64,000 nucleotides of DNA. It comes from an uncultured Desulfospira sp. (GTDB taxonomy: Bacteria; Desulfobacterota; Desulfobacteria; Desulfobacterales; Desulfobacteraceae). This document shows positions 2 to 9,806 of the stretch, in pieces. The notes below the pieces were generated by a model. It was not told the origin of the DNA. It worked only from the letters and a program-made list of their open reading frames with translations, and did not search any database. A program made the translations under genes and the position numbers. The stretch covers positions 3,712,001 through 3,776,000 of the forward strand of contig OY760175.1 of NCBI GenBank assembly GCA_963663165.1, in the 5' to 3' direction. How positions within the stretch are numbered: position 1 is the first letter of the stretch; each line of letters opens with the position of its first letter.

Positions 2-3000
2 ATCCGGGATGATACCCCCATCACCAACAGCGGGGCCACCGAGCTTTCCTCCATGAACCTGACCGAGCCCTTTGCCTCAACTGCTGCGGGCAGTGCCACC
101 ATGATTGTGGGAGACGATACGGTCACCATCCAGGGCTCTTTTTCAGGCCTTGGCGCTTCGCTTCTTTCAAGCTTTGACGCCATCGGCCTTTACCGGGGAC
201 GAAACGGCGAAGACGGAGAACTGGTCCAGACCCTGGATGTAAAAACCACAAACGCCCTTTCCGGAACCTTTTCGGCAAGCTATGCCAGAACCACGGAAAC
301 CCTTGATGCTCTGGCCGCAGGACTCTATTACATCCAGATCAATACAGCTGATCTGCCGACAGGTGCCTTAAGAGGCCAGCTTTACAACACTGAAACCAGC
401 AATGCGCCGGAATCCATCACTTTTACAAACACGGATTCAGGAGATACAGTCAGCGTGCGGAATGTGTCTGCCCTCCTGATTGTTGAATGGACCACAGCGG
501 AAGATAAAGAAAAATCCCCGGTCACTTATACGTATCAGCTTTCCACATCGGCTGACTTCAGCGAGGGGAGTCTGCTGGTCAACGCCTATGTGGGAACAAA
601 CAACTATTACCAGGGAATGACCGAAGCCCAATGGCTGGCTCTTCTGGATGGAAGCAGCGAAAAAGTGCTTTACCAGAGAATCATTGCCAGTGACGGACAG
701 ACCATTGTTATCGGCCAGGCTCAGGAAATCAAATTGACGGAGAACTCAAATCCCGTTGAAGGTGAGGTCACGGTAGAAGCGCCCAACTTCCAATACCAGG
801 GGATCTTTGCCACCCTGGGTACCGGGTTCACCGTGTATGACATTGCCATTGACGAAACCACCGGCCGTATCTGGGCCAACAACTATTACCATGGTCCTTA
901 CTGTTTTAATACGGATGGAACCATTCACAAATTCTCTGATTCCGGCATCGGATACGGAACCGATGCCAACGGCAACGATTTCATCAACGCCATAGACTTT
1001 AACGGCAATACCTTTTCCGACGGATATTGCTATGGTGTGGAGTATGACCCGGACGGATATATTCTCGTGGTAACAGACGGCAACCTGTTCAAGCTGGATG
1101 CCTATACCGGCAAGCCGGTTGCCTTCTGGGATTCTCCCACCAGCATAGGCTCCAACCCGTCCATGGCCGATGACAAATCGGTTTTCATGAGTAATGTTTA
1201 CCCGGGCAATGCCGCCTATATTGTTAAACCCAGCAGCACTGTGCAGGGAGAATACGACATTGTTACGGATTTTGGAACAAGCCTTGCTGTATCCGGCAGT
1301 GTAACCAGAACCTCAGCATACTCTCCTGAAGGCGACCGCATTTATCTTGTTCCCACCTCATCCTCCCCTTATGTTTCCGTGTATGCCAGGGTCGACGGCG
1401 AGTGGGTCAGACAGGACAACTTTGAAATGCCCGCATCCACAGGTTCCGACGCCGTGTATGCCGGTGAAAACCAGACCATGTGGGTGATCAACGAAAAAAG
1501 CACCAACCCGCCCAATCTAATATATGTGGATTTTACCAATCAGGAAACCTGGAATCTCTATCTTGAAGATATAGAAGAATCCGATATCCGGGCCATGACT
1601 GTAAGCCGTGACGGTAAAACCGTTTATGTCGGCGGCAGCACGGCCATTTATAAATACCAGGTGGTCGAAGAAGGCACTCAAGAAGATCCAAGCCTGATTT
1701 CCCTGAGCCAGGCCACTGCCCTGGATGATGATGATTCTGCACAGCTTCTGGGCGAAACCGTCAGGGTTCAGGCTGTGGTCACCACATCCAACCTGGCGGC
1801 AGACGGCCTGGAATTCTACGGCGAAGATGCCGGCGACCAGGTAAAATTCTTTGCGGGCACTGTAGTTGACGGGTATACCCCCAAAGCCGGAGACCTTGTT
1901 GAGGTCAAGGGACAGGTCCTTGAAACCCTGGGACAGGTGTACATCCAGCCCGAAAGCATTGAGCTGGTATCCCAAGACCAGCCCCTTGCCCGTCGCCCCC
2001 TGGTGACTGAAATCGGGGAGGATCAGGAGTCCCAGGTGGTTATTATCCCGGGGATTTCTTTGACCGATGCGGATCAGTGGACCAACGATGGATTCTTTGG
2101 TTTTGAGGTGACTGCGGCCAAAGAAGACGGATATTCCTTTAACCTGTTCATTTCCAAAGGCACGGATATTTTTGGAAACGAAGCCCCTGAAGGAACGTTT
2201 ACCGTAACCGGCGTGGTTCAGCAAAAAGGAGATGAGTACATTGTAACCCCTCTGTCCACCATGGATATCGGGCTCGAAGGCCAGGTGAGTACCGCCATGA
2301 TGACCAAATACCTGCCCGCCACCAGCAACCGGGTCACCTTCAGGGCCACTGCCGCCAGATCCCTTGGCCGGGTGAAAACCAGTGCCTATTCCTGGTACCG
2401 AAACGGTTTTCAGGTGGATTCCGACAATGACTGGGAAACGGTAACCGGACGGTTCTATGCCTGCCGGAACCTGAATTACGGCGACGTGCTGGTTGCTCAT
2501 GTAACCACCGCGGACTCTGTTTACCCATACGCATCCATTCCTTTTGCGCTTGGCATGGCTCCGGAACTTTCGGCAGATATAACGGACAACGCCCCTGGCG
2601 AAACCATCACCATCACCTTTGATGAAAACCAGAAATGGGCAGCTGCCATTGAAAAGATCGTCCTGGTTTCAGGAGATCAGGAAATCCTCATCTCCCAGAT
2701 GGGCGGTGAAGGCGAACTCCAGGGCCAGGAAGCGGAAAATCTTGCCCAAAAAAGTGTTGAAGTTGATTCAGCGCAGTATACAGTAAACACCACCGGTATT
2801 GTATTCAGCGCTGAGACTTTTGACCAGGTCGGGACTTACACCGTAATGGTGTATGCGGACGGTTACCGCCTGAATACAGTGGATCAGGAGATCCTTACAG
2901 CCTCTCCAACTGTTGAAACCGACAATGAGGACAATGACCTGCTCAATGATATCGTCATTACCTTTGAGCCGGATGAGGACTGGGCAGCAGCCGTGACCGG

Positions 3001-5377
3001 GGTATTCATCAATGGAACCGCCCTTGAAGCCGGTGACTACACCATAGAAAACGGGCAGCTGATCATCTATGCCGGTGTTTTCCCAGGCGCAGGAACCCTG
3101 ACGGTAACAGTTGAGGCTGACGGCTACACCGACAGGACCTTTGAACAGACCATTGTTCTGTCTACGCCGCCTGCCCTGACCGCTGACACCACCGATAATG
3201 TGGTGGGCCAGGCCATTGAAATTGAATTTGAGGCCAATGCCATCTGGCAGGGCTATATCACTGAAGTCCTGGTGAACGAATCGCCCCTGTCTTCAGATGA
3301 CTATACCATCGACAACGGTGTTCTCACCCTTGTCCCAGGCGTGCTGGGCCAGGTCCGGGAGTACGTCATCACCGTATCGGCGGACAACTTTGACGACACC
3401 GAAGTGGCCCAGCCGGTACTGGCCGCTACCGTGCCTGAGCTGATCCCAGCAGAAGATGTCTCCATCTTTGATGATGTGGTTATTACCTTTGAGGATAATG
3501 CGGCCTGGCGGTCGACTGTCCTCTCCGTAATCGTGGACGGGGAAGCACTGGATTCCAGCGCATGGACCCTTAACCAGGGAAATCTTGTCATTGCAGCCGG
3601 AACGTTTTCAGAAGCTGGCGATTATGAGATTCAGGTAACCGCTGGTGTTGCCTACCAAGTGGCTACGGTCACCCAGACCATTAACGCCCCTGAATATACC
3701 GTTTCCGGAACCGTGACCATGGATGGTTCAGCTCTGGCTTCCGTGGATATTATCCTGGACCAGCTGCTGGAGATGGATTTTGAAGGGAATCTTAACGATA
3801 CCAGCGGCAACGGCAATGAGGCAAATTCAGCCAATGTCCCGGTATATGATGACGATGCAGACCAGGGCCAGATTCTGGATTTTGACGGGTCTTCGGATCT
3901 GGTGAACCTGCCTGACTTTGTCCTTGAAGGAGACTACAGCATCAGCCTCTGGCTCAACCCGGATGTTATTGAAGGGACACAGGGCACAGGGTCTTACAGC
4001 CGCTCTTTCATGGCCTATTATGAGGACAGTGACAATGCCTTCAGGTTTACCATTGAGAACGGATATATCATCGCCTCCATCATCTCAGGCGGCGAAGAGG
4101 TCGGCGTGGGAACCCCTTCGGGCTCGCTTACAGCAGACCAGTGGGTCCATGTCACCATTGTTGTCAAAAAAGGAAAACAGGCGCGGGTTTACCTTGGCGG
4201 CCAAGATCAGACCGATTCTTCCTACGCCTGGAGCCGGGGCACGGATGCAGGGCTTACCCTGGGAGCCAGAAACAGTGGAGGCGGCCATTTCGACGGCCAG
4301 ATGGACAGCCTGATGATCTGGAACCGGGCCCTGACGGCAGAGGAGGTTTCTGATCTTGCCTCTACCGGAAAAGGCCCCAGGGTGGTAACTGGTACCGATG
4401 GGACCTACACCGCCCAGGTCTACTACGGCAAGGACCTGATCCTGAAACCTGAGTTCTCAGGTGTTACGTTTACGCCTGAAATGGCAGGTTTCACCAATAT
4501 CCAGGCCGATATCACCCAGAATTTTACCGGTGAGGGAGAAGTTTCCCTGGCCGTCCCCAACCCAATTGCCAACATGTCGGTGGACACCTCATCCGATCTG
4601 GTGATTGATCTTTCCGCCATGATGGCAGATCCTTCAGATCCACAAGCCCAGGTGTCATACACCCTGGTTTCCAACAGTGATTCTGATTTCATAAATGCCG
4701 TTATTTCCGGTACTGAACTGACACTGTCCTTTAAAGAAGTGTACGGAAAGGCATCCATTGAAATCAAGGGCACGGCCAACGGGAAAGAAGGGTCTGACAG
4801 TTTTATTGTAGAGCTCAATCCCTATTGTGAAGCTGGGGGCGGAGGCGACTGGGAGTATATCTTTGAGGTGAACCTGATCGGCTCTGACGATACCGACCTG
4901 ATGACCAATGAATCCGGCCAGACTCAGTACAGCAATTACCGTTACAGTTCAATCACCCAGGTAACTGCCGGAGAAACCATTACCCTGCGTGTTTCCAGCA
5001 AAGACTGGTCTAGCGACGAGGTTTTGGCCTGGATCGACTGGAACCAGGACGGAGACTTTGAGGATGACGGGGAGACCTACACAGTTGGTACAGGATGGGG
5101 AACCGAGACCCTTGGCACCTACCTGCACGCCTGGTCTTATGACATAACCGTACCCGAAACGGCCAAGACCGGTAAAACCATGCTCAGAATCCGCCACCAT
5201 GACGCCAGCGCAAGCGGTGCCAACACCACCCCCTGCGGCAGTTCAAGTTATGGGGAAGTGGAAGACTACGGTCTGGATATTCAGGCGGCTGCCGGCACGG
5301 ATGACACACAGGTTGAAGCGGCTTCTTCTGCCAGTACCACAAAAAGCCGCGCCAAGGCAGTAAAAAAGAAAAGATAA
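2..5377 (+). CDS. Large acidic multidomain surface/secreted protein, 5'-partial (CHRD, SusE-like/Ig, beta-propeller, OB-fold, 4x DUF1533-like, LamG, C-terminal GEVED)
   Basis: Frame is open from position 2 (IRDDTPITNSGATELSSMN...), so the true start lies outside the window. CHRD-like 'LAAGLYYIQINTADLPTGALRGQL'. Four repeats 'I(T/E)FExxxxWxxxI/V'. LamG 'YSISLWLNP...WVHVTIV...FDGQMDSLMIWNRALT'. GEVED 'WIDWNQDGDFED...GEVEDY'. Confidence 0.75.
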   Translation: MRDDTPITNSGATELSSMNLTEPFASTAAGSATMIVGDDTVTIQGSFSGLGASLLSSFDAIGLYRGRNGEDGELVQTLDVKTTNALSGTFSASYARTTETLDALAAGLYYIQINTADLPTGALRGQLYNTETSNAPESITFTNTDSGDTVSVRNVSALLIVEWTTAEDKEKSPVTYTYQLSTSADFSEGSLLVNAYVGTNNYYQGMTEAQWLALLDGSSEKVLYQRIIASDGQTIVIGQAQEIKLTENSNPVEGEVTVEAPNFQYQGIFATLGTGFTVYDIAIDETTGRIWANNYYHGPYCFNTDGTIHKFSDSGIGYGTDANGNDFINAIDFNGNTFSDGYCYGVEYDPDGYILVVTDGNLFKLDAYTGKPVAFWDSPTSIGSNPSMADDKSVFMSNVYPGNAAYIVKPSSTVQGEYDIVTDFGTSLAVSGSVTRTSAYSPEGDRIYLVPTSSSPYVSVYARVDGEWVRQDNFEMPASTGSDAVYAGENQTMWVINEKSTNPPNLIYVDFTNQETWNLYLEDIEESDIRAMTVSRDGKTVYVGGSTAIYKYQVVEEGTQEDPSLISLSQATALDDDDSAQLLGETVRVQAVVTTSNLAADGLEFYGEDAGDQVKFFAGTVVDGYTPKAGDLVEVKGQVLETLGQVYIQPESIELVSQDQPLARRPLVTEIGEDQESQVVIIPGISLTDADQWTNDGFFGFEVTAAKEDGYSFNLFISKGTDIFGNEAPEGTFTVTGVVQQKGDEYIVTPLSTMDIGLEGQVSTAMMTKYLPATSNRVTFRATAARSLGRVKTSAYSWYRNGFQVDSDNDWETVTGRFYACRNLNYGDVLVAHVTTADSVYPYASIPFALGMAPELSADITDNAPGETITITFDENQKWAAAIEKIVLVSGDQEILISQMGGEGELQGQEAENLAQKSVEVDSAQYTVNTTGIVFSAETFDQVGTYTVMVYADGYRLNTVDQEILTASPTVETDNEDNDLLNDIVITFEPDEDWAAAVTGVFINGTALEAGDYTIENGQLIIYAGVFPGAGTLTVTVEADGYTDRTFEQTIVLSTPPALTADTTDNVVGQAIEIEFEANAIWQGYITEVLVNESPLSSDDYTIDNGVLTLVPGVLGQVREYVITVSADNFDDTEVAQPVLAATVPELIPAEDVSIFDDVVITFEDNAAWRSTVLSVIVDGEALDSSAWTLNQGNLVIAAGTFSEAGDYEIQVTAGVAYQVATVTQTINAPEYTVSGTVTMDGSALASVDIILDQLLEMDFEGNLNDTSGNGNEANSANVPVYDDDADQGQILDFDGSSDLVNLPDFVLEGDYSISLWLNPDVIEGTQGTGSYSRSFMAYYEDSDNAFRFTIENGYIIASIISGGEEVGVGTPSGSLTADQWVHVTIVVKKGKQARVYLGGQDQTDSSYAWSRGTDAGLTLGARNSGGGHFDGQMDSLMIWNRALTAEEVSDLASTGKGPRVVTGTDGTYTAQVYYGKDLILKPEFSGVTFTPEMAGFTNIQADITQNFTGEGEVSLAVPNPIANMSVDTSSDLVIDLSAMMADPSDPQAQVSYTLVSNSDSDFINAVISGTELTLSFKEVYGKASIEIKGTANGKEGSDSFIVELNPYCEAGGGGDWEYIFEVNLIGSDDTDLMTNESGQTQYSNYRYSSITQVTAGETITLRVSSKDWSSDEVLAWIDWNQDGDFEDDGETYTVGTGWGTETLGTYLHAWSYDITVPETAKTGKTMLRIRHHDASASGANTTPCGSSSYGEVEDYGLDIQAAAGTDDTQVEAASSASTTKSRAKAVKKKR

Positions 5378-5915: not shown

Positions 5916-6074
5916 CAAAGAATTTAAGTTTATCTGTGGAAAAAAGTGGCTAAGCCTCACGACCTATTAGTACCGGTAAGCTCAACATGTTACCATGCTT
6001 ACACACCCGGCCTATCAACCTTGTCGTCTTCAAGGGGTCTTCAGTCCGAAGATGGGATATCTTATCTTGAAGTT

Positions 6075-6107
<33 letters not shown>

Positions 6108-6296
6108 GTACCCAACTTGGCTACCCAGCAATGCCCCTGGCGGAACAACTGGAACACCATTGGTTGGTCCAATCCGGTCCTCTCGTACTAGGATCAGATC
6201 TCCTCAAATATCCTGCGCCCACGAAAGATAGGGACCAAACTGTCTCACGACGTTTTAAACCCAGCTCACGTACCACTTTAATTGGCGAACAGCCAA

Positions 6297-6354
<58 letters not shown>

Positions 6355-6385
6355 GCCCCGTCGATGTGAACTCTTGGGGGCGATA

Positions 6386-6424
<39 letters not shown>

Positions 6425-6863
6425 CGGCCCTTCCATTCAGAACCGCCGGATCACTAAGACCTACTTTCGTACCTGCTCGAAATGTCTCTCTCGCAGTCAA
6501 GCTCCCTTATGCCTTTGCACTCTATGGCTGGTTTCCAATCAGCCTGAGGGAACCTTCGCGCGCCTCCGTTACTCTTTGGGAGGCGACCGCCCCAGTCAAA
6601 CTACCCACCAGACACTGTCCCAAGTCCGGGTTACGGACCATGGTTAGAACACTGAAATATGAAGGGTGGTATTTCAAGGGTGACTCCACCTGTACTGGCG
6701 TACCGGTTTCCTAGTCTCCCACCTATCCTGCACATCATATCCCAAAATCCAATGTCAAGCTGTAGTAAAGGTGCCGGGGTCTTTCCGTCTTTTCGCGGGT
6801 AGACGGTATCTTCACCGCCATTCCAATTTCGCTGAGTCCCTGGTTGAGACAGTGTGGAAGTCG

Positions 6864-6945
<82 letters not shown>

Positions 6946-7658
6946 TGGGGCTTCGGTTCAGTGCTTCGCTTACGCTAACAAATCCCCTTAACCTTCCAGC
7001 ACCGGGCAGGCGTCAGACCCTATACCTCGTCTTGCGACTTTGCAGAGTCCTATGTTTTTAGTAAACAGTCGCTACCACCAATTCTCTGCGGCCCCCAACA
7101 GCTTATTGTGTATACAAATCACCATCAGGGGCATACCTTCTCCCGAAGTTACGGTATCATTTTGCCGAGTTCCTTAACCAGGGTTCTCTCAAGCGCCTCG
7201 GGATACTCTCCCTGCCTACCTGTGTCGGTTTGCGGTACGATCACCTGTTATCTCGATAGAGGCTTTTCTTGGCAGCATGGGTGCAGTCAGTTTATGGGGT
7301 AAACCCCTCCTCATCACTTCTCGGCCTTAGAGTTCCGGATTTGCCTAAAACTCCAGCCTACTAGCTTGAACCGCCTATTCCAGCAGACGGATGACCTGCC
7401 CTCCTGCGTCCCCCCGTCTCTCAAACGATAACAAGGTGGTACAGAAATATTAATCTGTTTTCCATCGACTACGCCTTTCGGCCTCGCCTTAGGGATCGAC
7501 TAACCCTGAGAAGATTAGCTTTACTCAGGAAACCTTGGGCTTACGGCGAGCGGGCCTCTCACCCGCTTTATCGCTACTCATGTCAGCATGGTCACTTGTG
7601 CAACCTCCACACAACCTCACGGTTGCGATTCTTCGGCGGCACAACGCTCTTCTACCAC

Positions 7659-8086
7659 CAAGAAACTAGATACTGGAAACAAGAAACAAGACCTTAACTG
7701 TATCGGTTGATTAAGCCTCGCAGCATTCTTCCGATCTCCTGATATCTTTGATCAAAAAAAGTTTGGTCTTGTTTGCTCAAATACTCAAGGTCTCTTGAAA
7801 ACTCCAGCCATACCCGGCTTTCGTCACATGATCCCATGGCTATTTGAACGAATCTTCTTACATCAGCTTTACTGGATTGCTTGCCCATCCCTTCTGCAAT
7901 ATTTGCCGGGATAGATTTGCTTGACTTCCTTAGTTGTTGAGCCAGTTCATACTGCTCATGCTGGGGAAATCTTAGACTTACTTTGTGCACTTCCAACGCT
8001 AACTGATAAGACTTTTTAAAAACTTCAAGTCTATGGTAAGGCATCATCGCCCTCCTTGTTTCTTGTCTCTAGTATCTAGTTTCTTG
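7659..8086 (-). mobile_element. 23S rRNA intervening sequence in helix 45 (428 bp), ORF-containing
   Basis: Replaces the short helix-45 tip between ...GCTGCGGAT and GTGGTAGAAGAGCGTTG. Bounded by 32-bp inverted repeats 7659-7690 / 8055-8086 (30/32 identical) built of 7-mers. Confidence 0.93.
7694..8047 (-). CDS. Four-helix-bundle protein (23S rRNA IVS protein family, PF05635/TIGR02436-like)
   Basis: 117 aa with 'YHRLEVFKKSYQL...FPQHEQYELAQQLRKSSKSIPANIAEG...FVQIAMGSCDE...YLS...EIGRMLRGLI'. AGGAGG SD upstream; same strand as the rRNA. Confidence 0.92.
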   Translation of the reverse strand: MMPYHRLEVFKKSYQLALEVHKVSLRFPQHEQYELAQQLRKSSKSIPANIAEGMGKQSSKADVRRFVQIAMGSCDESRVWLEFSRDLEYLSKQDQTFFDQRYQEIGRMLRGLINRYS

Positions 8087-8170
8087 ATCCGCAGCTTCGG
8101 TACTATGCTTTAGCCCCGATACATTTTCGGCGCAGATCCACTCGACCAGTGAGCTGTTACGCTTTCTTTA

Positions 8171-8201
<31 letters not shown>

Positions 8202-8245
8202 TTGTCTGGGCATTCCCACATCCTTCTCCACTTAGCATAGATTTG

Positions 8246-8278
<33 letters not shown>

Positions 8279-8698
8279 CTCGTCCGCGGAACTTAGCTCC
8301 CGCGGGCTGACTCCTGCACTCTAACTTATCGGTATTCGGAGTTTGGTTAGGTTTGGTAATCTGGTGAGACCCCTAGCCCATCCAGTGCTCTACCTCCGAC
8401 AAGAAACGTGCAAGGCTATACCTAAATATATTTCGAAGAGAACCAGCTATCTCCAGGTTTGTTTGGCCTTTCACCCCTATCCACACCTCATCCGAACAGT
8501 TTTTAACCTGTGACGGTTCGGGCCTCCACGAGATTTTACTCCCGCTTCACCCTGGACATGGATAGATCACCTGGTTTCGGGTCTACTCAATACAACTTTC
8601 GCCCTGTTCAGACTCGCTTTCGCTTCGGCTACACCTATCGGCTTAACCTTGCTATATTAAGTAACTCGCTGACTCATTATGCAAAAGGCACGCGGTAA

Positions 8699-8835
8699 CC
8701 AAGAGACTAGAAACAAGAAACTGGAAACAAGATTTCGAACACTCGGTAACTTCCGGTGCCTGTTCAGCCCATTTAAATTGGGCGCCGAAGGCGCTTCGCC
8801 CTCTTGTATCTTGTTTCTTGACTCTAATCTCTTGG
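8699..8835 (-). mobile_element. 23S rRNA intervening sequence in helix 25 (137 bp), ORF-less
   Basis: Inserted between ACAAGCTGTGGGAG and TTACCGCGTGCCTTTTG. 34-bp inverted repeats (28/34) of the same AGAAAC(A/T)-type heptamers, with small internal hairpins. Confidence 0.9.
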
Positions 8836-8866
8836 CTCCCACAGCTTGTAAGCAAACGGTTTCAGG

Positions 8867-8918
<52 letters not shown>

Positions 8919-9486
8919 GGTTCGCTATCGGTTGCCAAGTCGTATTTAGCCTTATGTGATGGTCCACACTAATTCCCACAGAATTCCTCGTGTTCCGCAG
9001 TACTTGGGAGTACAATCAGGAGATCGATTATTTTCGCTTACAGGACTGTCACCTTCTTTGGTTAAGCTTTCCAGCTCATTCAACTAATAATCAATTTTTT
9101 TACTCCTGGAATCATCCGAAACTGATTCGCATGCATCCCGCGACCCCGATAACGCAACGCTTTCGGGCTTACACGTTACCGGTTTGGGCTGGTCCCCGTT
9201 CGCTCGCCGCTACTTGGAGAATCGTTTTTACTTTCTGTTCCTGGGGGTACTAAGATGTTTCAGTTCTCCCCGTTACCCTCCTTAACCTATGGATTCAGTC
9301 AAGGATGACACAGTATTGACCGTGTCGGGTTGCCCCATTCAGAAATCTCCGGATCAATGGGTGTTTAGCCCCTCCCCGAAGCTTATCGCAGCTTTCCACG
9401 TCTTTCTTCTTCACTTGGCACCAAGGCATCCGCCGTTTGCTCTTAGTAGCTTAGCCACTATTCCACAAATAAACTTAAACGCTTTG

Positions 9487-9610
9487 ATGTTTTTGAAAAA
9501 ATTGCGATCTTCGGCGTTGCTTCACAAAATTTTTAAAACGACATAGCCTACTATGCCTTATTTAAAAATTTTGTTCGCGCCTTGAAGCTCATCAATTTTT
9601 TCTTCAACAT
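9487..9610. repeat. 124-bp palindromic element (family A) in the 16S-23S ITS
   Basis: atgtt...aacat ends; conserved GCGTTGC...GCGCCTTG motifs; no tRNA found in this ITS. Confidence 0.75.
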
Positions 9611-9660
9611 AGCTCGCAAAAGTCTGATCAACATCAAACTCTCACGATTTATGATTAATT

Positions 9661-9718
9661 CAGTTGCCTTTACGGCAACTGCGCAATTGATATTTACTAC
9701 AACAAATTTTCAAAGAAC
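9661..9718 (-). promoter_or_regulatory. ITS antitermination boxA-like site plus small hairpin
   Basis: Minus strand GTTCTTTGAAAA (a similar GATCTTTGAAAA lies in the leader at 11450-11461); hairpin cagttgcc-ttac-ggcaactg. Confidence 0.55.
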
Positions 9719-9806
9719 ATGACAGATCCGGCTACTCTTGTTCACCGTTTTGATCTCTCAAAATTGGCCAGTGATAGCCTTAAAGCTTTTTTTATCTTTC
9801 CTTTGA

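What the first reader, a model, noticed from the sequence alone, without database searches (positions are those of the whole stretch)
7659..8086. Protein-coding intervening sequence inside 23S rRNA helix 45: a four-helix-bundle gene caged by inverted 7-nt repeat arrays
Seen: a 428-bp insert with 32-nt arms made of heptamers (AGAAACA/AGAAACT/AGATACT). In the rRNA the arms give 30 Watson-Crick pairs, one G-U and one mismatch. The AGGAGG SD sits at the end of the 5' arm and the stop codon lies 3 nt before the 3' arm, so the gene fills the loop. Known: helix-45 IVSs are excised by RNase III without religation; ORF-bearing IVSs of this protein family occur in Leptospira and Coxiella; the fold is related to the DGR accessory protein Avd; the function is unknown. 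Inference: the excised IVS would be a stem-protected mini-mRNA made at rRNA levels. The heptamer arms suggest a discrete mobile cassette that is tolerated because it is processed out.
Basis: partly seen in the sequence, partly recalled or inferred. Interest (0 to 1): 0.82.

Follow-up and report, generated by a model that had tools for sequence, protein, structure and literature searches.

The report
Gene-carrying insert in 23S rRNA
A small gene wrapped in a hairpin of 7-base repeats sits inside two of this bacterium's three large ribosomal RNA genes; such inserts are known from Leptospira and Coxiella, but this one belongs to a cross-phylum lineage found only in ribosomal RNA whose gene is strongly conserved, so the protein probably does something.

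Summary
Contigs from two public studies reproduce it. It is a new member of a known kind, the ORF-bearing 23S intervening sequence; heptamer repeats are already described for the Coxiella IVS (PMC4990558).

Additions from this work:
- Two of three rrn operons carry it, plus a 135-bp ORF-less sister with the same arms in helix 25; the third has neither.
- 93 of 94 homologues at 50% identity or more lie in 23S helix 45 or 25, across six phyla, in one supported clade.
- dN/dS is 0.04-0.12, like recA and gyrB, and the arm sequence is more conserved than silent sites.
- Two relatives keep one-heptamer stubs.
- The same heptamer forms 141 genomic arrays, polarised after stop codons and carried by two miniature elements.

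Best reading: an RNase III-excised selfish cassette that spreads between rRNA alleles by recombination and makes a functional ring protein. Excision, translation and mobility are inferred, not shown. The 'stable mini-mRNA at rRNA levels' idea is doubtful. The scan noted this cassette design many times on other DNA.

The parts
5946..9456 (-). Host 23S rRNA gene, 3511 nt (2974 nt in the insert-free operon)
   Evidence: Rfam RF02541; three copies compared
7659..8086 (-). Helix-45 intervening sequence, 428 nt, replacing the normal helix tip; 41% GC against 50% for the genome
8055..8086 (-). 5' arm, 32 nt, about 4.5 heptamers
7659..7690 (-). 3' arm, complementary to the 5' arm; A.C mismatch and G-U pair at positions shared across the clade
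8051..8056 (-). AGGAGG Shine-Dalgarno sequence, predicted mostly base-paired
7694..8047 (-). Four-helix-bundle ORF (PF05635/TIGR02436), 116-117 aa, pI 9.5, likely start 8044
8700..8834 (-). Second, ORF-less intervening sequence in helix 25, 135 nt, with the same heptamer arms (27 WC, 2 G-U, 4 mismatches in 33 positions). Its 5' arm plus loop hairpin also occurs in two dispersed miniature elements.

Best explanation
This is an ORF-bearing 23S rRNA intervening sequence of the Leptospira/Coxiella kind, from a lineage specialised for helices 45 and 25. (1) Shown: it replaces the helix-45 tip in 2 of 3 operons, is predicted to fold as a 32-bp stem, and encodes an Xcc0516-like four-helix bundle. (2) Inferred from the known family: it is transcribed with pre-rRNA and cut out by RNase III without religation, which makes it harmless. 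(3) Inferred from selection: the protein is translated from the pre-rRNA or the excised piece, probably modestly and briefly. (4) Inferred: the cassette enters empty rRNA alleles by homologous recombination or gene conversion through the conserved flanks, mostly among kin and sometimes across phyla. It is lost by collapse to a stub or by conversion back to the empty allele. (5) Least certain: the basic ring-shaped protein binds its own heptamer arms and helps the cassette's processing or spread. ORF-less arm pairs (helix 25) and lone arrays would then be non-autonomous relics.
For: Filled and empty alleles in one genome. In 151 family genomes the ORF-IVS was found in 3, from 3 genera, and a short helix 45 in 34; G078 has 2 filled and 3 empty copies. 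93 of 94 loci at >=50% identity are in 23S: 81 in helix 45, 12 in helix 25. The exception is a 55-aa partial match, and all 10 loci below 50% are outside rRNA (104 of 105 loci scored). One 69-row clade (97/95) holds only 23S copies and mixes Thermodesulfobacteriota, Pseudomonadota, Bacteroidota, Actinomycetota, Planctomycetota and Chloroflexota. dN/dS was 0.035-0.119 in the 17 of 68 printed pairs where silent sites were not saturated, and 0.07-0.11 against 0.05-0.13 for recA and gyrB. The 32-nt arms are identical to those of L036, L061 and L154 while dS is 0.8-1.4. An A.C mismatch at stem pair 19 recurs in 24 of 41 distinct arm pairs and a G-U at pair 22 in 25 of 41. G022 and G017 keep 8-bp stubs of the arms, and full-IVS contig L061 matches G022 at every variable flank position. 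One RNase III gene is present. Protein identity tracks host 23S identity (Spearman 0.66, pairs of 33 loci). The model supports self-association: score 0.55, best of 3 controls 0.00, run agreement >=93%, pLDDT >=84; that mark was reached by 20 of 30 solved pairs and 1 of 23 single chains, and the pass may come from memory of 2GSC.
Against: No RNA data show excision or translation. No foreign flank sequence came with the insert in G000 or G078, so a recombinational entry is not shown. Within the family, IVS dS (0.81-1.31) overlaps or lies only somewhat below host-gene dS (1.2-2.5), so inheritance plus repeated loss is not excluded. Of 37 genes where the other helix was readable, only 5 had three or more words of this heptamer type there, and several had other repeat words, so trans-mobilisation of matching arms is not a rule. 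The arrays occur in 22 of 81 family genomes, including G001, which has no IVS. Some copies look broken: a 1-nt deletion in G078's second copy and partial matches. The loci were collected by likeness to this protein, so the clade is sampled unevenly. In Coxiella the ORF is decaying and the RNA is labile.
Confidence: 0.6

Rival explanations
1. Host-beneficial passenger: the protein helps the cell (for example as an RNA chaperone or stress or defence factor), and the rRNA operon is only a strong growth-linked expression site. The arms serve only excision.
For: Housekeeping-level dN/dS. An SD-like core upstream in 45 of 68 distinct proteins (no background computed and the arms are purine-rich). 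All three operons are filled in G100.
Against: Patchy presence (3 of 151 genomes), mixed operons, stubs and broken copies fit a gain-and-loss cycle. It does not explain why the arm sequence, not just the pairing, is conserved.
Confidence: 0.2
2. RNA-mediated homing: like its structural relative Avd, the protein recruits a reverse transcriptase from elsewhere in the genome to copy pre-rRNA carrying the IVS, and the cDNA converts empty alleles and seeds arrays at gene junctions.
For: Fold matches Avd (TM 0.78). The genome has 11 reverse-transcriptase matches. Lone arrays are polarised to the sense strand after stop codons: 11 of 65 against 0, null mean 1.1, maximum 5 in 2000 draws. The stubs keep about 8 bp of arm, the length that RNase III left in Coxiella (444 versus 428 nt).
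Against: The Avd equivalog is not reached (36 bits, cut-off 80) and identity to Avd is 13%. No RT is linked. The polarity is equally explained by cassettes inserting in the transcribed orientation. Stub loops resemble the host's empty loop, which suggests DNA recombination.
Confidence: 0.12
3. Neutral hitch-hiker: the ORF is silent and decaying, as proposed for Coxiella, and only the hairpin matters.
For: PMC4990558. The SD is predicted paired. A few frameshifted or partial copies exist.
Against: dN/dS of 0.04-0.12 with saturated silent sites across a clade found only in 23S genes cannot arise without translation at some stage.
Confidence: 0.07
4. Assembly artefact.
For: The arms are repetitive and match many genomic arrays.
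Against: Two operons, two public runs with 0 differences, and homologous inserts at the same site in many other records.
Confidence: 0.01

Closest known systems
Coxiella burnetii helix-45 IVS with S23p ORF (Warrier et al. 2016, PMC4990558; read: first of 6 parts, section 14, passages)
   Same: Helix 45; about 430 nt; long terminal stem; tandem heptamers before the ORF; same protein family.
   Different: Different heptamer word. Here the SD lies at the inner end of the arm and the ORF is under strong purifying selection. The host has a mix of filled and empty operons and a sister insert in helix 25.
Leptospira ORF-bearing 23S IVS (Ralph and McClelland 1993, 1994; not held in the library; known only as cited in PMC4990558)
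   Same: Conserved ORF in a helix-45 IVS; horizontal transfer and a mobility role for the ORF were already proposed.
   Different: Could not compare in detail. Those papers may already report selection on the ORF or repeats in the arms.
Xcc0516 (PDB 2GSC), BT_0352 (2RLD) and DGR Avd (4DWL)
   Same: Same fold (TM 0.93, 0.83, 0.78). 2GSC is a homopentamer of four-helix bundles (PMC4990558; link to Avd in PMC10053308, passages).
   Different: 31% identity to 2GSC and 13% to Avd; no RT or template repeat beside it.
PF05635/TIGR02436 genes with repeat arms between ordinary genes
   Same: L001 in this genome and many relatives have tandem-repeat, often inverted, flanks. Earlier notes of this scan describe the design widely.
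   Different: They fall outside the 23S clade and use other repeat words. None of the non-rRNA copies examined carried this heptamer on inverted arms.
ORF-less helix-25 and helix-45 IVSs of Salmonella (PMC2672173, passages)
   Same: Same sites, uneven distribution among operons, RNase III excision.
   Different: No ORF and no heptamer arms are mentioned in the passages read.

Membership tests
ORF-bearing 23S rRNA IVS (Leptospira/Coxiella type) | Insert at helix 45 (or 25) of a 23S gene | tested here: met
ORF-bearing 23S rRNA IVS (Leptospira/Coxiella type) | Terminal inverted repeats forming a long stem | tested here: met
   32 positions, z -7.3
ORF-bearing 23S rRNA IVS (Leptospira/Coxiella type) | S23p / PF05635 / TIGR02436 ORF in the loop | tested here: met
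   116 and 115 bits, over cut-offs
ORF-bearing 23S rRNA IVS (Leptospira/Coxiella type) | Sporadic among operons and relatives | tested here: met
   2 of 3 operons; 3 of 151 family genomes
ORF-bearing 23S rRNA IVS (Leptospira/Coxiella type) | Excised by RNase III without religation | not testable with these tools
   RNase III gene present; no RNA reads of this strain were available
Group I/II intron with homing endonuclease | Ribozyme core and a nuclease or RT ORF | tested here: not met
   Rfam gives only LSU, SSU and 5S; the ORF is an all-helical bundle
Insertion sequence / MITE | Target-site duplication and a transposase | tested here: not met
   The insert replaces the helix tip with no duplication; no transposase in 428 nt
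DGR accessory protein Avd | NF033474 over cut-off | tested here: not met
   36 bits, cut-off 80
DGR accessory protein Avd | Four-helix bundle forming a homo-oligomeric ring | tested here: inconclusive
   Fold met; oligomer supported by a model only, with four copies
DGR accessory protein Avd | Linked RT and template repeat | tested here: not met
   The gene lies inside 23S; RT matches are elsewhere in the genome

The most novel reading that the evidence does not exclude
The four-helix-bundle ring is a sequence-specific reader of its own heptamer arms and drives a nuclease-free, homing-like spread of the cassette into rRNA helices across phyla. The same process leaves ORF-less arm pairs, helix stubs and the hundreds of strand-polarised heptamer arrays at gene junctions, which would link rRNA intervening sequences to the origin of bacterial heptamer repeats.
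Probability: 0.22. Interest if true: 0.8.

Novelty: new member of a known kind. Interest (0 to 1): 0.42.

Why it matters
How IVSs arise and move, and what the S23p protein does, are left open in PMC4990558. The one well-studied case I could read (Coxiella) concluded that the ORF is decaying. This lineage points the other way: selection as strong as on recA, acting on a gene found only inside 23S. A genome with filled and empty operons side by side is a ready test bed for conversion and for protein-arm binding. The locus itself is an ordinary example of a known element.

Tried and rejected
- RNA runs X1 and X5 have no cover over the ORF while the flanks are deeply covered by other organisms' rRNA. 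This says nothing about expression. No listed contig spans the helix-25 insert, so it rests on the two operons and on homologous inserts in L036-L038.
- Foreign co-conversion tract: none within 200 nt upstream or 150 nt downstream.
- A non-rRNA gene with the same arms: not found among the family loci or the 20 further regions.
- Matching heptamer arms in the other helix as a rule: not supported, 5 of 37.
- The pattern search missed even the own genome and was discarded; one search replaced it.
- The script stopped with an error after 68 rows; later loci were not scored.
- The automatic heptamer call missed some real arms (L001, seen directly) and mis-set ORF ends for frameshifted copies.
- The strict pattern for the GTTAGCT-type arrays gave no stop-codon signal (1 against 0 of 46); the loose one gave 47 against 15 of 220.
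- Literature searches found no paper on an rRNA-restricted clade under selection or linking these arms to genomic arrays. Ralph and McClelland 1993 and 1994, and one further paper sought by a recalled id, were not held. Supplements were not read.
- Intron, IS and DGR membership were rejected (see membership tests).
- L036-L038 and the G100 copies give the same identity values and are counted as one data point.

Full report
Observation. The window holds a 16S-23S-5S operon on the minus strand; the 23S match spans 3511 nt. The insert at 7659-8086 is as described: 32-nt arms with 30 Watson-Crick pairs, one A.C mismatch and one G-U, a fold with z = -7.3, an SD at 8056-8051 and a stop codon 3 nt before the 3' arm. 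The ORF is PF05635/TIGR02436, well over cut-off. Its model (pLDDT 96.5) matches Xcc0516 (TM 0.93) and, more weakly, Avd (TM 0.78). Contigs from two studies reproduce the insert with flanks and 0 differences.

The genome. There are three rRNA operons. Two carry an identical helix-45 IVS and a 135-nt ORF-less helix-25 insert with the same heptamer arms; the third has neither. The IVS replaces the 16-nt helix tip, with no target duplication. 23S flanks of 94-96% identity to a record named Desulfotignum place the host among Desulfobacteraceae-type sulfate reducers (inference).

Relatives. In 151 family genomes the protein was found at E <= 1e-30 in 3, from 3 genera, and a short helix 45 was found in 34; many drafts lack rRNA. 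G078 has 2 filled and 3 empty copies. G022 and G017 keep an 8-bp stub of the arms, and contig L061, with the full IVS, equals G022 at all variable flank positions. I read this as a gain-and-loss cycle. Filled and empty flanks are identical within G000 and within G078, so no donor tract is visible.

The lineage. Two scans gave 25 genome loci and the best 80 of 195 metagenome loci. Of 104 scored, 93 of the 94 at 50% identity or more lie in 23S (81 helix 45, 12 helix 25), and all 10 below 50% lie elsewhere. A tree of 99 distinct near-full-length proteins (116 columns, many open forks) puts 69 rows, all in 23S, in one clade (97/95) that mixes six named phyla. Protein and host-23S identity correlate (0.66; pairs are not independent), so transfer is biased to kin or partly vertical. 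dN/dS is 0.035-0.119 where measurable (17 of 68 pairs; the other 51 are saturated) and equals that of recA and gyrB. Because these genes are found only in 23S, the selection acted there. The arms stay identical across dS of 0.8-1.4 and keep an A.C mismatch (24 of 41) and a G-U (25 of 41) at fixed positions. RNase III needs pairing more than an exact sequence (general knowledge), so something may read the heptamers; slippage and conversion among repeats could also homogenise them.

The heptamer elsewhere. 141 arrays of three or more units occur in the genome, against 0 in 2 Mb of shuffled sequence: 8 in the IVS arms, 49 and 19 in two miniature dispersed elements that carry the 5' arm and loop of the helix-25 insert, and 65 alone. 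Eleven of the 65 begin within 12 nt after a same-strand stop codon and none in the opposite sense; random placement in non-ORF DNA gives a mean of 1.1 and a maximum of 5 (crude ORF calls). Several form inverted pairs between co-oriented genes, like empty cassettes. The non-rRNA paralogue L001 sits between two genes with arms of another word, whose arrays show the same polarity, 19 against 0. Arrays occur in 22 of 81 family genomes, including one without the IVS. No non-rRNA gene with these arms was found. The link from arrays to cassettes is therefore an inference.

Mechanism. Shown: anatomy, allele polymorphism, clade restriction, selection. Inferred from the known family: RNase III excision without religation (enzyme gene present; shown for Coxiella). 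Inferred: translation, spread by recombination between rRNA alleles, and arm binding by a basic (pI 9.5) homo-oligomer. The model score for self-association is 0.55 against 0.00 for controls, possibly from memory of 2GSC. I give this 0.6, a host-benefit reading 0.2, RT-assisted homing 0.12 and neutrality 0.07.

In Coxiella the excised RNA had a 3.9-min half-life in E. coli, the SD was removed on excision and the ORF was decaying (PMC4990558). Here the SD would survive a cut near the stem base but is predicted mostly paired. A stable, abundant mini-mRNA is possible but unsupported.

Comparison and novelty. Every defining feature of the ORF-bearing IVS that could be tested is met; intron, IS and DGR membership are not. 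Heptamers in an IVS, horizontal transfer and a mobility role for the ORF are in print (PMC4990558 and papers it cites). I found no paper on the rRNA-restricted clade, its selection or the link to genomic arrays, but the two Leptospira papers were not readable. The scan's word search returned 447 earlier findings in at least 406 genomes; the 8 shown describe this cassette design on other DNA. These are leads, not support. Papers seen: PMC4990558 (first part, section 14, passages), PMC2672173 and PMC10053308 (passages); others only as search listings.

Verdict. Real; a new member of a known kind; interest 0.42. The value lies in the evidence that the protein is functional and in a genome that allows a direct test.

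Noticed in passing
G000 genome-wide (e.g. C1:271632, 302603, 1145965): A 124-bp miniature element with 18-bp terminal inverted repeats and 10-bp target duplications carries the heptamer array plus the loop hairpin of the helix-25 IVS; 19 copies.
   Followed up: partly
G000 genome-wide (e.g. C1:273396, 6702621): A second dispersed repeat of roughly 130-150 bp (49 copies) begins with the same array and hairpin, 83-90% identical to the first 60 nt of the helix-25 IVS.
   Followed up: partly
G000 genome-wide: Other heptamer families are abundant. The GGGACTT type has 128 arrays, 19 after a same-strand stop against 0 opposite, and is the word that brackets the non-rRNA four-helix gene L001 (C1:1448354-1448671). 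GTTAGCT-type arrays often end just before an SD and start codon on the other strand.
   Followed up: partly
L183 (G022), L184 (G017); run X1: Helix 45 reduced to a one-heptamer stub of the IVS arms with a short AT-rich loop like the host's empty loop; similar joins appear in RNA contigs of X1. How stubs form is unexplained.
   Followed up: partly
L052:4013-4564: One 23S gene carries two ORF-bearing IVSs, in helix 25 and helix 45, with different repeat words.
   Followed up: no
window 9099-9325: The window's 23S copy differs from the other two at 6 positions in its first 360 nt, although it shares both inserts with one of them.
   Followed up: no
window 9457-9805: The 16S-23S spacer holds no tRNA gene.
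   Followed up: no
   Followed up: partly
L044:4160-4495; L039:4120-5070; L049:4120-5450: Other large 23S inserts in IVS-bearing genes; they look like a small nuclease cassette and group I introns with endonuclease ORFs (labels recalled, not tested).
   Followed up: no
window 53-5377 (+): A 1774-aa acidic, repeat-rich ORF just downstream of the rRNA operon, with the look of a large surface protein.
   Followed up: no
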